Shown here in pieces: positions 3,991 to 64,000 of a DNA stretch of 64,000 nucleotides. This stretch comes from Octopus vulgaris. Taxonomy: Eukaryota. Under the pieces are notes generated by a model, which was not told the DNA's origin, did not search any database, and was given only the letters and a program-made list of their open reading frames with translations. Both the position numbers and the translations under genes were made by a program. Location of the stretch: assembly GCA_951406725.2 (NCBI GenBank), contig OX597816.1, positions 64,914,001 through 64,978,000 of the forward strand, in the 5' to 3' direction. The stretch's first letter is position 1; each line of letters opens with the position of its first letter.

Positions 3991-4985
3991 ATCATTTACA
4001 ACTACCCCATCTCCTCTTGTAGAGAGCGAGACTTTTTCGAAAATTAAAATAGGGATTAAATGAAAAAATGTCTTACGACAATATCTCCACTAAAGTGATT
4101 GAAATAAATGGCGACTGAGGAACGCCCCACACATACACACACGCGCGCGCGCACATATATACAGTATCAAACATCAGATTAAATGGACATATGTGTGTGT
4201 GAGAGAGAGGAGTGTGTTGTCATGTATACGTGCATACATAAATAAATATGCATTCATCTTTTTTGTATATATATATATATATATATATATATATATATAT
4301 GTGCGTGTGAGTGAGAGAGAGAGTGCTACTTAGTCATCACTCTCTTGCATTCTATTTCACACACACGTGCGCGCACACATACGTACAAGAAGATGTATAC
4401 ATATGTATGTACGTATGCATGACAATACACCTCTTGACGAACTCACTCTTTCTAGCGCTGACTCTCTCTCTCTCTCTCTCTCTCTCTAACGTAAACACAC
4501 ACAAACATAGACACATACATAAATGCATACAAACGTACATACACAATCACACGTGTGCGTGTGTGTGTGTGAGAGAGAGAGGGGGGAGCAGAGAGAACAT
4601 TGCAGACAACGAATGAAATAAACATGAAATGAAAAAATCGTATAGATAAAAGCTCATTAAAAACTATCTCGTACCGAATATGTCAATTTGTGAACTTAGT
4701 AAATATTTCTTTCAGTAATTTATCGTAGCTTTTTACAAATAGCGAATTAAAACTTGAAATGAAAACATTTAAATAGAAAATGAAAACGCAAAATTTCGCT
4801 GTTGCTACGTCAATACCGGAAGCTGACACTGAGAAACCATTCTAAAGCAGTGAATCATATATATAAAGGAATATTATTTACATTATTCACATTTGACGGA
4901 TATTTGTCTTCATCTTGTTTGTTGTTAACACAATGTTTCGGCTGATATACCCTTGGGGAAATTTCGAACCTGGGTTCTCATTCCT

Positions 4986-5180
4986 ATTATTATTATTTTT
5001 ATTATTATTATTATTATTATTATTATTGTTGTTGTTGTTGTTGTTGTTGTTGTTGTTGTTGTTGTTGTTGTTGTTGTTGTTGTTGTTGTTGTTGTCGTCG
5101 TCGTCGTCGTCGTCGTTGTTGTTGTTGTTGTTATTATTATTATTATTATTATTATTATTATTATTATTATTATTATTATT
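4986..5180. repeat. (ATT)n(GTT)n(GTC)n microsatellite inside the PLE terminal repeat
   Basis: Directly visible. Confidence 0.95.
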
Positions 5181-5243
5181 CAGGTCACTGCTTGGAATCG
5201 AACTCGGAATCTTGGGGCTAGTAGCCCAAGTGAATTTTAGGGC

Positions 5244-5575
5244 TTATAAATCTAATATTTTTCTATCTTTCCTTAATACCGGTTCCCATATGTTGCTCAT
5301 ATCTGCATTCGGTCTGCTTAAGAGGTTGTTGTGCCCTAGCATATGAGCTGCTTCATTTAGTTTTCGTTGTTTCCAGTGGTGTTCTCTGTCTATTATTTTA
5401 ACCTCATCCCACAAGGAGAGGTGGTCTCCATTTTTCCATACATGATCAGCTATAGCCGATTTATCAATATCTCCTCGTGTCACAGCTTTGCGATGTTCGG
5501 CTACTCTTATTTTGAGGGGCGGCATGTTTCGCCTTTGTATAACCTATCACAGTTGCATGGGATGGACTACACACA
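5244..5575 (-). pseudogene. PLE GIY-YIG endonuclease domain, frameshifted
   Basis: ORFs 5244-5525 and 5567-5827 join across frameshifts and retain the VY..YxG, R..EH and E motifs. Confidence 0.85.
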
Positions 5576-8500
5576 GTCTTTGGTCAAATTCTCTTCTATT
5601 GGTGGTTTTACTCGAAGGAGATATCTGAGAAGTGTTGTATTACTCTTGAATACTGTCCTGATGTCATATGGACATATCTTTTGTATCTTTTCGGAGCGGC
5701 CTTTCACATAGGGTAGACAGACTGTGGACAGTTTATCGGCCTCTTCCTCTCTATTCTTTATAATTGGAGTGGACAGTATACTTTTAGGGTGGATGTTGCT
5801 TAACAGATCCTTATTGAGCTTGGTCATTTCTTCGTGGTGTGTATCACGATCGCTACTTATATTCTTTGAACGATGTTTTAGGCATTGAGCAATCCCTCTC
5901 TTTACACTGTATGGATAGTGACAATAGAAGTTGAGGTATCGTCCAGTGAAGGTCGGCTTGCAGCATACGGATGTCCTGAATCCATACTTGGTGCGTGTTA
6001 TTTATACGTCCAGGAATGCCAGCTGATCGTCTTTTTCCTTTTCTACTGTGAACTGTATGGACGGCTTTATTGAGTTCACATGATCTAACAGCACTTGGAC
6101 ATCTTTCTGGTGGGTCCAGAGTAAAAAGGTGTCATCAACATATAGTAGCTATAGTGTTGGTTTTAGTGGTGTTGATCCTAAAGCCAAATTCTCAAATGTA
6201 AATAATCTACATAATTCCTCATCTCTTAAATATAGAATTGGAATATTATTTATTTTTAACCTTCAAATAAACTGAAGACACTATCATGTATCCAAGATCA
6301 AATTATTCATGCATCCTAAATATAGAAGCCATTCGTGCAACCGTTTTCGCGTGAAAAGCGAATACACACACACACACATACAGGTCTCTTTTCTATATGG
6401 ATATATTTATGTTAGGATGTGTTTCAGTATCTGCATGCTGTGTGGCCATATACCTCTTAATGTGAGCTGGTGGCAGTGTAAACTTTCATTTTATTAAAGA
6501 GATTGACATATTCTCCAGGAAAAACAGGAGGACAAAAACGGAGTGAGAAACATAAAGAGAGAGAAAGAGGAGAGAGAGAGAGAGAGAGAGAGAGAGAGAG
6601 TGAGAGAGATCTTCGACATGAAGAATGCAAATTAATTAAATAAGCTACGGGAGTGTGTACAATGATCGGGGTGGCGTTTAAAGGATTCTGTGAGAAATTA
6701 AATAAGAGAACAGCAGGCTTAATCCCAACAATCGACAACACACGCACTGTCATATATTCGATATTCTGTTTATCACGCCGCATGACCGTGTATGCTGTGT
6801 AATGCTTAAGAGAAGGAAAATCGATAGAGCAGATTACCTTTGCCGACTCAGTCGCATAATTTGTTTCAGAATCGATTCACTATTTCGACTGTCTTTATCA
6901 CATGTACCAACTCGTGCAAATCAATCTATTTACCATATTATGTTTCAACAGCGTATTAATGTGTCTGTATGTGAGTTTGTGTACGTATGTGAAAACAATC
7001 CTGGCGGTTAGTATGTAAATGCAAGTTTGTGTGAACCTGACGTTCGGTGTCAGGGTTTTATATGTATATGCACGAATGTTTATATATATATAAATAAATA
7101 AATATGTGTATATATATATATATATATATATATATATATATATATATATACGCACACATAGATGCGTTGTGCGTGTGTGTGTTTTGTATTTGCCTTCATA
7201 ATCCCCTCCTTTAGCTCACAAGAGTAATGCAACACACGAATTGATAAGACTCTATGCAAATAATAGCTTATTTTGTATGTATACGAAAATCTGTCTATGC
7301 TTATATGAGTGTACATATATATATACATATATCTATGTATATGTATATATATATATATATGTATGTATATATACATATATATACATAAATGTATATACAT
7401 TATGTGTATATACATATATATATACATAAATGTATATACATTATGTGTATATACATATACATATATATATATACATATAAATATGTAGATATGTATATGT
7501 ATAATATACATAAAAATGTATATTATATATATATATATATATATATATATGTGTGTGTGTGTGTGTGTGTGTGTGTGTGTGTGTGCGTATGGAGGTGCGC
7601 GTGTATGTTTGTACGTGTGTGCACATACACATGTGGGTGTATATACATATATATATATATATAGAGAGAGAGAGAGATAACCATAAATTTATATATAAGT
7701 ATGTTTATATGCACATATATACTTACACGCACATACACACACAAACATATCACATGCTTATATGTATATGTCTGTATATATGTATGTGCGTTTGTGGATG
7801 TTGATATATATATATATATATATATACATAATCCATTCATCCAACGTTTTTGTTTATATTTATATGTATATGTGCCTATGGTTATAAATGCGATGCTCTT
7901 GCACCTCATGGTAATAGAATTTTCAACACTATACATCCTGTTATATAGAATCGAACAAAGAATATATACATATATTTGGTTCTATATACAACTTTCCATT
8001 CCTGTTTACGGGAGTTGATACAAGCTGCTTTCATGAATTATTATTATCAATTTTCTTTGGTTATTTACTAATTTTCTTTTCAATCGTAGTTGCTGACAAA
8101 ATGCAACAAGAGAGAATTACTTTTTACTTTTATATTTTCTAGGACTATATCGTATGAGGATATTTATTTCTCCCTTCATTCGTGACCTTATCTCACTAGC
8201 ATAATCACAAAACATGGATAGGGAATTAAATATTGGCTTACTTTAAATGCGGACAAACAAATCTTAGCTTATTATTCGTTGAGATCAAAGTGCAACTATT
8301 TGTACAAGTGGTATATCGATGGACACCCATATCCCGAACAACTACGTAGAACTTTTTTTTTCCTTCAATAAAGTTTTTCCATATTAAAAAGGACTTAAAT
8401 CTACATACAAAAGTACATTAGCAAGCAGAAAGATGTTAGAGTCCTCTTAGTTGACCGTGGTAGAGAGAACCGACTTTTCATCTATGATGCATGGCTTGCT

Positions 8501-62479: not shown

Positions 62480-63125
62480 ATATGGGCATGATCCGAAAAG
62501 TTCTGTCCTTGAGTTTAGACATGTAGTAGGGTCTAAGCTGCTTTTCCAGATAAGCTAACTCTCCATGTCGCATAGACAACACTTTCCGCTGCCGTTGGTG
62601 TAAGGCTTACATTTTGCCAAAATCTTCCAATGGATGTTATAATCGACACCTTTATCTTTTAAAGACCAAATATGATTAGATAATTTTGTCGCTTTTCTTT
62701 TGTTCCAGTGCCTAAAACTGAAGATGTGGTTATTGAACCTGGCCTTGAAATTACCCTCTGTAAGGCCCACGTATTTCTTCGTCGAAACGGTGTCTTTAGT
62801 GGTTATAGAGTCCACGGTAGCTTCATAGATGATGGTCCCGGACATGCAAGCTCCATTTAGCGGGCACAATTTTTTTATTCCTGCATGAACAGTTGTTTTC
62901 TTGTGGTTTTTGTGTGTTATGTTTGATTATATTTTTTTTAATTGGTAGTTGAACTAAAACAAATTTTTAAATTGTGTTTATTGAAGAGTTTCCTGTAAGT
63001 ATGGTTAACTGGAAAATGTCTATCTATCAGTGTTAAGAAATATTTACCTATATTGAAGGTCACGTCGGGCGAGTAAGGGGGTGTAAACCAGATGATCTTC
63101 CTATTTCTATTTTTCCTCTTCTTTA
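62480..63125 (-). pseudogene. PLE ORF C-terminus: linker plus GIY-YIG endonuclease, disrupted
   Basis: RKIIWFTPPYS..NIGKYFLTLIDRHFP..KLFNKHNLKI and CPLNGAC..IIYEATV..YVGLTEGNFKARFNNH..ATKLSNHIW..CCLC. Confidence 0.9.
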
Positions 63126-63144
63126 CTGTTTTTTCAGATGGCCA

Positions 63145-63205
63145 GATAACCGAAGAGATGGTGTTGTGGATTTCCACTTCGGCATCTGAAACTCAGAGTT
63201 TTATC
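63145..63205 (+). ncRNA. Type I hammerhead motif, CCGAAGA core (inverted copy of 61635-61695)
   Basis: Same sequence on the plus strand, with stem I GAUAA/UUAUC. Confidence 0.68.
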
Positions 63206-64000
63206 TTTACTATTGAGTAATTGTAACATATTATTTTATAGATATATATAATAATATATATATACAAGAAACTGAGTGCATGCAGATACCTATATTCAGT
63301 CATGTATGTGCGTGTGTGGTGGACGTATGAATATATCTATCAGTCTATCATTTTGTCGTCCTTTGCTTTTTTCAATTATATAACGAAAACATAATGCCAT
63401 CCAATTAAAGACACAAAACGGTTCTTAAAAGTATCTACAATTCTGCTGAGAACCAGACAGAAATGGTCAATGGCGGCAAGAAACAGAATAAAAAATGAAA
63501 GTAAACGGTTTCTTACATTTGTGATAATAAAAAAGGGAGAAAGGTGTGAAAAATGTGAGGAAAACTAGTATGGAGATTGGGAGTTGGCAGGGCATCTTTT
63601 AGAGTGTAAACAAGGAACAAATTTGATATTGCAATTAGGTGTGAGGAACGTAAGATAATACACCTTGCTGAATTAACTGTTCCACATAAAAAAATCAAGG
63701 TAAAGCTGAAGTCGGGAACGACAGGTGTCATAAGTGGCTACTGGAAGATTCTGTACCTATTTATTGAAGTGATGAACACTTTCATGTTGAAGTGGATTGT
63801 AGATGATTTATTAGAAACAAAATGTGACAGTACTTGCTATCAATTATCGTCAATCATCGTCAATCATATGCCATTATGCCATTTTGAAAGAAACTACGTT
63901 ATGCAGACTTTTCGATGTCCGAGTCTATATATATATATATATATATATATATATATGTGTGTGTGTGTGTGTGTGTGTGTGTGTGTGTGTGTGTGTGTGT

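What the first reader, a model, noticed from the sequence alone, without database searches (positions are those of the whole stretch)
4868..63246. Recurring rule: both ends of each PLE-like insertion are the same terminus, inverted
Seen in about nine cases: 1939-2341, 4868-6240, 12548-12932, 39570-39873, 47465-47728, 47858-48014, 48801-48968, 57225-57456 and 61510-63246. Arm lengths are often unequal and most cases abut (TA)n. Established: PLE insertions often have an inverted, truncated pLTR at the 5' end. Inference: the arms often differ by several substitutions, which fits two RNA molecules each priming one strand of a cut target. The hammerhead stem III dimer could hold the two RNAs together. 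Post-insertion decay could also explain the differences.
Basis: partly seen in the sequence, partly recalled or inferred. Interest (0 to 1): 0.7.

Follow-up and report, generated by a model that had tools for sequence, protein, structure and literature searches.

The report
Penelope retrotransposon inverted ends
These are decayed insertions of Penelope-like retrotransposons whose two ends are back-to-back copies of the element's own 3' end, a layout already described for this class, and the differences between the two ends look like ordinary ageing rather than a sign of two different RNA templates.

Summary
All 9 inverted pairs are real. They belong to five hammerhead-bearing families; two carry PLE coding remnants (Penelope/Poseidon-type RT+GIY-YIG, Hydra-type GIY-YIG). 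The layout (inverted 5'-truncated pLTR, tail at one end, variable TSD, (TA)n targets) is published PLE anatomy.

The rule is overstated. 5 of 14 PLE-type insertions have no inverted arm. In 7 of 9 the two ends are different stop points: one short, one with a 32-120 nt tail. Three boundaries need revising; three insertions have 11-13 bp TSDs.

Arm differences do not support two different templates. 36 informative sites group arms by insertion against 2 across, and 29 of 33 assignable mismatches are private to one arm, as decay predicts.

Priming from both cut strands is still the likeliest mechanism: TSD geometry, non-nested arms in 4 of 9, and published in-vitro extension of both strands. One tandem RNA versus two molecules cannot be told apart here.

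The hammerhead tether is unproven. Ribozyme-less Naiads also invert, but families with stronger stem III palindromes invert more often here (8/8 against 1/6; family-level p=0.07). Verdict: known; modest mechanistic leads.

The parts
1935..1947 (+). Case 1 left TSD copy (13 bp; partner 2610-2622, 2 nt shared with the element end)
   Evidence: 0 of 1500 AT-rich unmasked random pairs reach 11 bp
1948..2212 (-). Case 1 (family F5) inverted pLTR with degenerate hammerhead, ends at long terminus T2
2235..2330 (+).
2414..2611 (+).
4868..4880 (+). Case 2 left TSD copy (13 of 13 identical to 6240-6252)
4881..4990 (-). Case 2 (F1) 3' pLTR ending at T1; part of the hammerhead deleted
5244..6196 (-). Case 2 broken RT C-terminus, thumb and GIY-YIG ORF, Penelope/Poseidon type
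   Evidence: (40 hits, best E 3.6e-47)
6187..6239 (+). Case 2 short inverted arm carrying a ~32-nt tail absent from the main copy; ~5-nt junction microhomology read from the translation
12548..12932 (.). Case 3 (F3): two 175-nt arms (12548-12722 minus, 12758-12932 plus), intact hammerhead core in both, 5 of 175 mismatches, identical termini
   Evidence: (RNA fold z -3.6)
39143..39400 (-). F4 pLTR with hammerhead (39311-39375), ends at T1 in a TA tract; probably the main 3' end of case 4
   Evidence: linkage inferred, one search gives a caveat
39572..39871 (.). Case 4 (F4): partial pLTR plus tail 39572-39779 minus, inverted tail arm 39792-39871 plus, short duplication at the junction; 2 of 76 mismatches
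47468..47726 (.). Case 5 (F2, Hydra type): left arm 47468-47596 ends at T2, right arm 47611-47726 ends at T1; non-nested; 5 of 67 mismatches
47858..48014 (.). Case 6 (F3-related, about 70% identical to case 3): arms 47858-47952 minus and 47950-48014 plus; 7 of 65 mismatches; identical termini
48803..48966 (.). Case 7 (F2): left arm ends at T1, right arm at T2; junction lies in the stem III palindrome at the cleavage site; 5 of 43 mismatches
57221..57577 (.). Case 8 (F4): left arm 57221-57380 ends at T1; right arm 57408-57577 carries a ~120-nt tail to T2; fold-back hairpin at the junction; non-nested; 6 of 49 mismatches
61529..63244 (.). Case 9 (F2): main copy minus strand with pLTR 61529-61715 (T2), 3' region and broken Hydra-type GIY-YIG ORF 62462-63123; inverted arm 63125-63244 (T1); probable 11-bp TSD at 61517 and 63247; 2 of 117 mismatches
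13201..13316 (-). Counter-example: solo F1 pLTR, no inverted arm
18199..18400 (-). Counter-example: F6 hammerhead-bearing copy, no inverted arm
18931..19130 (-). Counter-example: F6 copy ending at its short terminus, no inverted arm
48182..48252 (+). Counter-example: degenerate F6 3' fragment without the hammerhead, no inverted arm
   Evidence: (E 1.5e-7)
54168..54334 (-). Counter-example: F6 copy between two TA tracts, no inverted arm

Best explanation
These are ordinary insertions of endonuclease-bearing Penelope-like elements. The GIY-YIG nuclease makes a staggered cut in AT-rich DNA, leaving two 3' ends (inferred from 11-13 bp TSDs; double-strand cleavage shown in vitro for a relative). 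Each end primes reverse transcription at one of the element's two start sites near its RNA 3' end, T1 or T2 (shown in vitro for a relative, inferred here). The two cDNAs grow toward each other, stop at variable lengths and are joined through microhomology, a short duplication or a hairpin (junction sequences shown, joining step inferred). This gives head-to-head pLTR arms, usually with the tail at one end only. Both templates come from the same donor lineage (shown); whether they are two RNA molecules or two pLTR copies in one tandem transcript is not resolved. Arms start out identical or nearly so and drift apart by neutral decay.
For: TSDs of 13, 13 and probably 11 bp bound three insertions. 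Orientation is always 3' end outward. In cases 1, 2, 5 and 8 each outer arm has sequence the other lacks, so neither was copied from the finished other arm. Two termini occur in 5 of 6 families, matching the two RT start sites that bracket the tail in PMC11167929, where both strands are cut and extended. Within-insertion distance is 87/1009 (8.6%, 11 pairs) against 363/1725 between insertions (21.0%, 21 pairs); quartet sites 36 vs 2. 29 of 33 assignable mismatches are singletons. Case 9: 0 of 65 private changes in the tail and 2 of 117 arm mismatches. Case 7: 2.6 mismatches expected from its tail, 5 seen, p=0.13. In case 1 all three pLTR segments differ about equally (9.8-14.3%).
Against: Only 2-3 insertions per family. 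The right arm of case 7 is closer to the case 9 arms (7.8-9.4%) than to its own partner (11.6%). The more truncated arm carries more private changes than the longer arm (20 vs 7, p=0.019; 6 of 6 non-tied insertions, p=0.031; post hoc), which pure decay does not predict. In case 4 the adjacent inverted pair is closer (2/76) than the tandem pair (10/84), p=0.034, so post-insertion homogenisation or two events may occur, and homogenisation could itself make arms cluster. Junction hairpins in cases 7 and 8 also fit self-priming. In 5 of 9 cases one arm is, or may be, nested in adjacent sequence.
Confidence: 0.6

Rival explanations
1. Self-priming or fold-back (Arkhipova 2013): a template or cDNA folds back and is copied into an inverted-repeat intermediate, which the endonuclease then trims at T1 or T2 and integrates.
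For: Proposed in PMC3846280 from palindromic junctions; PMC8557442 ascribes the tail to EN-mediated resolution. Junction hairpins in case 8 (z -2.3) and case 7 (z -3.1), weak in cases 1 and 3. It predicts identical arms from one donor, as seen, and could explain one tail per insertion.
Against: 5 of 9 junction windows show no hairpin beyond shuffles; the case 7 value is inflated because the window includes both arms. Non-nested arms in 4 of 9 need extra trimming steps. In vitro the two termini are RT start sites, not DNA cut sites.
Confidence: 0.22
2. One reading: two RNA molecules, often from different donor copies, are held together by the hammerhead stem III dimer and each primes one strand; arm differences are templated.
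For: Every family has a self-complementary stem III (computed self-duplex -3.5 to -10.5 kcal/mol in 10 of 11 copies). Minimal PLE hammerheads are thought to act as dimers (PMC4209133). Families with 8-11 bp palindromes (F2-F5) are inverted in 8 of 8, those with a 6-bp palindrome (F1, F6) in 1 of 6 (p=0.003 by insertion, 0.07 by family). Excess private changes in the short arm.
Against: Arms group by insertion 36:2; only 3 of 33 mismatches have both alleles seen elsewhere. Naiads without canonical hammerheads make the same structure. Catalytic mutants insert normally and a protein dimer is predicted, although catalytic mutants keep stem III. F2-F5 were found largely because they are inverted (ascertainment). 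The F1 stem III is inferred from two degenerate copies.
Confidence: 0.08
3. Later events: independent opposite insertions in one TA tract, post-insertion inverted duplication, or an assembly fold-back artefact.
For: TA tracts are hot spots here (cases 5 and 6 share one). Case 4 may be two events.
Against: One TSD bounds the whole unit in three cases. No TA tract lies between the arms. Arms share donor-specific variants. Arms differ by 2-14% and carry sequence the partner lacks, which a read fold-back would not give.
Confidence: 0.07
4. They are MITEs or non-autonomous DNA transposons with terminal inverted repeats.
For: Cases 3 and 6 are short, have identical termini and TA-rich flanks, and no ORF.
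Against: Arm overlaps within one family vary (43, 67, 117 nt in F2) and termini differ. TSDs are 11-13 bp and variable. The arms contain hammerheads, and the same arms flank RT or GIY-YIG remnants.
Confidence: 0.03

Closest known systems
Typical Penelope structure (Adineta vaga Pen2a; PMC3846280)
   Same: Direct pLTR(s) plus an adjacent shorter inverted pLTR, head to head, optional tail at one end, TSD around the whole unit (8-10 bp there, 11-13 bp here), palindromes at some junctions. Case 1 reproduces it.
   Different: Tails here reach about 66 and about 120 nt against the 30-40 bp described; most inserts here are pLTR-only.
Hydra clade PLEs (PMC8557442 section 11 and supplement)
   Same: [quoted passage not shown]
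   Different: RT not present in the window; not shown to be the published Hydra-1_Obim family.
Penelope/Poseidon clade; PAc of Anolis (PMC11167929)
   Same: Family F1: RT-thumb-GIY-YIG order with CCHH-type residues, minimal hammerhead, two termini 32 nt apart, AT-rich target. Most arms span an uncleaved ribozyme site, as the in-vitro template does.
   Different: In the parts read, that paper does not link both-strand extension to the inverted pLTR; no biochemistry exists for these families.
L1 twin priming (recalled, not read here)
   Same: Both nicked strands prime cDNA; inversion joined by microhomology; TSD kept.
   Different: In L1 the inverted piece is an internal part of one RNA; here both arms hold the same 3' end, which needs two copies of that end.

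Membership tests
EN+ Penelope-like elements | PLE-type RT and GIY-YIG endonuclease in one ORF | tested here: met
   F1: tblastn 60-66% identity over RT, thumb and EN to proteins found. F2: EN remnant, E 1e-26; Pfam GIY-YIG E 0.008, below cut-off. Met for F1 and F2 only.
EN+ Penelope-like elements | Coding sequence linked to families F3, F4, F5, F6 | tested here: inconclusive
   No tblastn hit near them with 44 PLE proteins; they are filed on ribozyme, tail and layout only.
EN+ Penelope-like elements | Type I hammerhead in the pLTR, sense strand, near the 3' end | tested here: met
   Own scans recover F1, F2, F3, F4, F6 motifs (shuffles give at most 2 hits at the lowest threshold and none at 10.5 or above). 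F5 read by eye, degenerate. Rfam found no hammerhead at the gathering score or among the 150 of 387 matches listed.
EN+ Penelope-like elements | Tandem and inverted pLTRs, 5' truncation, optional tail at one end | tested here: met
   definition from PMC8557442 Fig. 2 legend
EN+ Penelope-like elements | Variable TSD or insertion into (TA)n | tested here: met
   TSD in 3 of 9; the other 6 abut TA arrays where none is readable
Hydra clade (F2) | CxCX5C linker, no CCHH, canonical hammerhead, (TA)n target | tested here: met
   Translation compared by eye with published alignment rows and text
Hydra clade (F2) | RT phylogeny, RWK and DKT motifs | not testable with these tools
   RT part is truncated away in the window
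Penelope/Poseidon clade (F1) | RT phylogenetic placement | not tested
   No tree built; assignment rests on domain order and motif reading
MITE / TIR DNA transposon | Fixed TIR length and fixed short TSD within a family | tested here: not met
   F2 overlaps 43, 67, 117 nt with unequal termini; TSD 11-13 bp
Non-LTR retrozyme | Head-to-tail tandem array of 150-1000 nt units each with an intact hammerhead | tested here: not met
   No such array of these families; at most two direct partial copies in cases 1 and 4

The most novel reading that the evidence does not exclude
PLE integration is a concerted two-ended reaction. A dimeric RNP starts one target strand at T1 and the other at T2 (7 of 7 insertions asymmetric in the four inverted families that show two termini). 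It uses a second template that is often an older copy (short arm more decayed, 20 vs 7), and pairing of the palindromic hammerhead stem III raises the chance that a second RNA is present (8 of 8 vs 1 of 6). This would give the PLE hammerhead a structural, non-catalytic job and explain the inverted pLTR.
Probability: 0.12. Interest if true: 0.65.

Novelty: already known. Interest (0 to 1): 0.24.

Why it matters
The structure itself is textbook for PLEs, so it mainly matters for annotation: such pLTR-only palindromes mimic MITEs. How the inverted pLTR forms is stated to be open (PMC8557442). A genome with this many PLE insertions makes the question testable by computation: tail asymmetry, short-arm variants and stem III strength give distinct predictions for one tandem RNA, two RNAs, or fold-back.

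Tried and rejected
1. Mismatches concentrated near the junction: seen with wide arm limits (40 of 66 in the inner half, p=0.03; mean position p=0.016). It vanished once junction hairpins and misaligned ends were removed (22 of 44, p=0.52; mean position p=0.35). Rejected as an alignment effect.

2. Breakpoints at the ribozyme cut site: of 20 pLTR segments in the nine insertions, 13 span the site, 6 start downstream and 1 (case 7 left, ambiguous in a palindrome) starts at it. No rule; templates were mostly uncleaved.

3. Treating 2414-2611 and 39143-39400 as independent solo copies. Revised after the TSD was found; statistics were redone and both sets are reported.

4. Rfam gave only a 5S-like match at the gathering score. 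ARAGORN found no tRNA.

5. Other local inverted repeats (20892-21046, 30161-30217, 49900-50173, 53649-53688, 53811-53927) match none of the six family profiles and had no hit in the hammerhead scans, so they were left out of all counts. Opposite SINE copies were also left out.

6. Short window motifs gave no nucleotide match in the Craig 2021 supplement.

7. Literature searches for a two-RNA or twin-priming model for PLEs listed none that states it in title or abstract; those listings were not read through, apart from PMC3846280. [quoted passage not shown]

8. No eukaryotic genome collection was on hand (the genome collection is prokaryotic; metagenome and viral contigs were closed), so the genome-wide test stayed unchecked.
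Full report
SETTING. The window is AT-rich animal DNA (35% GC) full of microsatellites. Its repeats recall an octopus genome; this is recalled, not tested. Craig 2021 lists Naiad and Hydra PLEs from Octopus, and a 2026 annotation lists active Penelope families there (PMC13282606, passages).

THE OBSERVATION. Self-BLAST of the masked window finds 8 of the 9 inverted pairs. Direct alignment finds all 9 above the best of 200 shuffles, with overlaps of 26-175 nt and 2.5-11.6% substitutions; case 2 is marginal alone but has a perfect 13-bp TSD. 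The arms fall into five families, and a sixth (F6) has no inverted copies. Hammerhead motifs orient them. Cores are intact in both arms of 12548-12932 and recognisable in F1, F2, F4 and F6; F5 is degenerate and was read by eye. Rfam did not report them. Two cases hold broken coding sequence on the minus strand. At 5244-6196 it is RT, thumb and GIY-YIG (40 hits among 181 candidates, best E 3.6e-47; tblastn). At 62462-63123 it is a GIY-YIG with the Hydra linker (4 hits among 92 candidates). F3-F6 have no ORF in the window, so their PLE status rests on ribozyme, tail and layout. In every arm the 3' end points outward. Nine of 18 ends lie within 12 nt of a TA array against 2.2% by chance.

CORRECTIONS. 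(a) Not each insertion: five copies lack an inverted arm within 3 kb, so 9 of 14, and F6 is 0 of 4 against 9 of 10 for the rest (p=0.005). (b) Not the same terminus: five of six families show a short end T1 and a long end T2 = T1 plus tail (about 32, 62-67, 120, 66 and 20-25 nt in F1, F2, F4, F5, F6). With revised limits 7 of 9 insertions have T1 at one end and T2 at the other (p=0.09 against a coin); the two exceptions are the F3 cases, where no tail is known. (c) Case 1 extends to 2609-2611 and is bounded by a 13-bp direct repeat: it is inverted pLTR, direct partial pLTR, linker, direct pLTR. Case 8 extends to about 57577. Case 9 has a probable 11-bp TSD. Case 4 probably extends to 39143 with the layout of case 1, but no TSD is readable. 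Among 1500 AT-rich unmasked random pairs none reached 11 bp; among 3000 unrestricted pairs 0.5% did.

WHAT IS KNOWN. PMC3846280 (parts 1-4 of 5 read) calls an inverted shorter pLTR with an optional tail and a TSD the typical Penelope structure, notes the head-to-head arrangement and proposes self-priming. PMC8557442 (passages, section 11, supplement searches) shows the same for all EN+ clades, says the tail is often at one end only, reports (TA)n targeting, and notes that Naiads do this without canonical hammerheads. PMC8969392 (passages) repeats it for curators. PMC4209133 (parts 1-2 of 4) reports dual minimal hammerheads 100-700 bp apart on opposite strands in Schistosoma, and dimeric architecture. 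PMC11167929 (parts 1-2 of 4) shows a Poseidon protein cutting and extending both target strands, starting at two RNA sites that bracket the tail, using mainly uncleaved RNA, unaffected by ribozyme-dead mutations, with a predicted protein dimer. A bioRxiv preprint on retrozymes (parts 1-2 of 5; supplements closed) and PMC6431247 (passages) added nothing on inversion. So the rule is known anatomy; the step that makes it is still open.

TEST OF THE TWO-TEMPLATE INFERENCE. With conservative arm limits and the first grouping, arms differ at 44 of 697 sites within insertions and 405 of 2052 between. With the revised grouping the figures are 87 of 1009 (11 pairs) and 363 of 1725 (21 pairs, range 7.8-30.9%). 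Five quartets give 36 sites grouping arms by insertion and 2 across. Of 44 mismatches, 11 have no outgroup, 29 are private to one arm, 3 have both alleles elsewhere and 1 neither; 80 sites are shared by both arms and unseen in other insertions. Case 9's two arms share a change in the ribozyme core. In F2 the tail gives a separate clock: case 9 has 0 of 65 private changes and 2 of 117 arm mismatches; case 7 has 2 of 65, predicting 2.6 mismatches against 5 seen (p=0.13). Case 2 was left out of these counts (overlap too short), and F1 and F6 do not enter them. Limits: the test rejects RNAs drawn at random from the family pool, not two RNAs from one donor; but these would give identical arms, so differences cannot argue for them. 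Conversion between arms could add to the clustering.

RESULTS AGAINST MY READING. Case 7's right arm is nearer to case 9 than to its partner. The more truncated arm has 20 private changes against 7 (p=0.019; sign test p=0.031; post hoc, with my choice of limits). In case 4 the inverted pair is closer than the tandem pair (p=0.034). Families with 8-11 bp stem III palindromes are inverted in 8 of 8, those with 6 bp in 1 of 6 (p=0.003; by family p=0.07). These are six non-independent families, four found largely by being inverted, although a relaxed scan found no further strong solo hammerhead.

MECHANISM. Shown in the sequence: TSD around the whole unit (3 of 9); 3' ends outward; two termini; outer arms that each hold sequence the other lacks (cases 1, 2, 5, 8); junctions with a few bases of microhomology (cases 2, 6), a short duplication (case 4) or a hairpin (cases 7, 8); 13 of 20 segments spanning the uncut ribozyme site. 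Inferred: a staggered cut gives two primers, each copies the RNA 3' end from T1 or T2, the cDNAs are joined, and decay follows (0.6). Self-priming with later trimming is the main rival (0.22). Different-donor RNAs tethered by stem III is unlikely but open (0.08). Later events or artefact (0.07) and MITE (0.03) are disfavoured. One tandem transcript with two pLTRs would serve as well as two molecules and cannot be separated from them in 64 kb.

VERDICT. Real, correctly recognised as PLE, already known. The proposed evidence for two RNAs fails its own test on this sample. The useful residue is three weak, testable leads: one tail per insertion, excess change in the short arm, and stem III strength. 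No genome-wide check was possible. Interest 0.24.

Noticed in passing
window 5181-5229 (minus), inside case 2: Between the ORF stop and the hammerhead, F1 carries a tRNA-like stretch with a B-box-like motif followed by a long (TAA)n/(CAA)n tract; ARAGORN does not call it. It could be a Pol III promoter captured in a PLE 3' UTR, or a SINE insertion.
   Followed up: partly
window 11116-11234 (minus): 5S rRNA-like copy, 78 bits, next to a SINE-like repeat; a pseudogene or the head of a 5S-derived SINE.
   Followed up: no
window 8836-9064, 9441-9852, 20465-20860, 28919-29443, 41175-41560, 47118-47340, 50316-50555: Abundant SINE-like family with an internal 184-bp tandem unit in 1-3 copies; SINE label recalled.
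   Followed up: no
window 424-873, 10687-11104, 12161-13200, 26847-27164, 30269-30622: Second SINE-like family split into two halves by an internal microsatellite; cases of PLE arms sitting in or beside that microsatellite (12548-12932, 13201-13316).
   Followed up: no
window 21466-23857: Three tandem copies of an ~860-bp unit, 97-99% identical: a recent duplication or an assembly expansion.
   Followed up: no
window 20892-21046, 49900-50173, 53811-53927, 53649-53688, 30161-30217: Inverted repeats with no hammerhead hit and no match to the six PLE families; the first three look MITE-like, 53649-53688 is a perfect 40-bp AT-rich palindrome, 30161-30217 is a fold-back of a SINE head.
   Followed up: partly
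window 61640-61690 and 63150-63200: Both arms of case 9 share the same substitution in the hammerhead core, so a probably inactive ribozyme was mobilised, or one arm converted the other.
   Followed up: partly
window 43885-44227 and 49387-49485: Small direct repeat pair (80% over 117 nt) with a third partial copy, unclassified.
   Followed up: no
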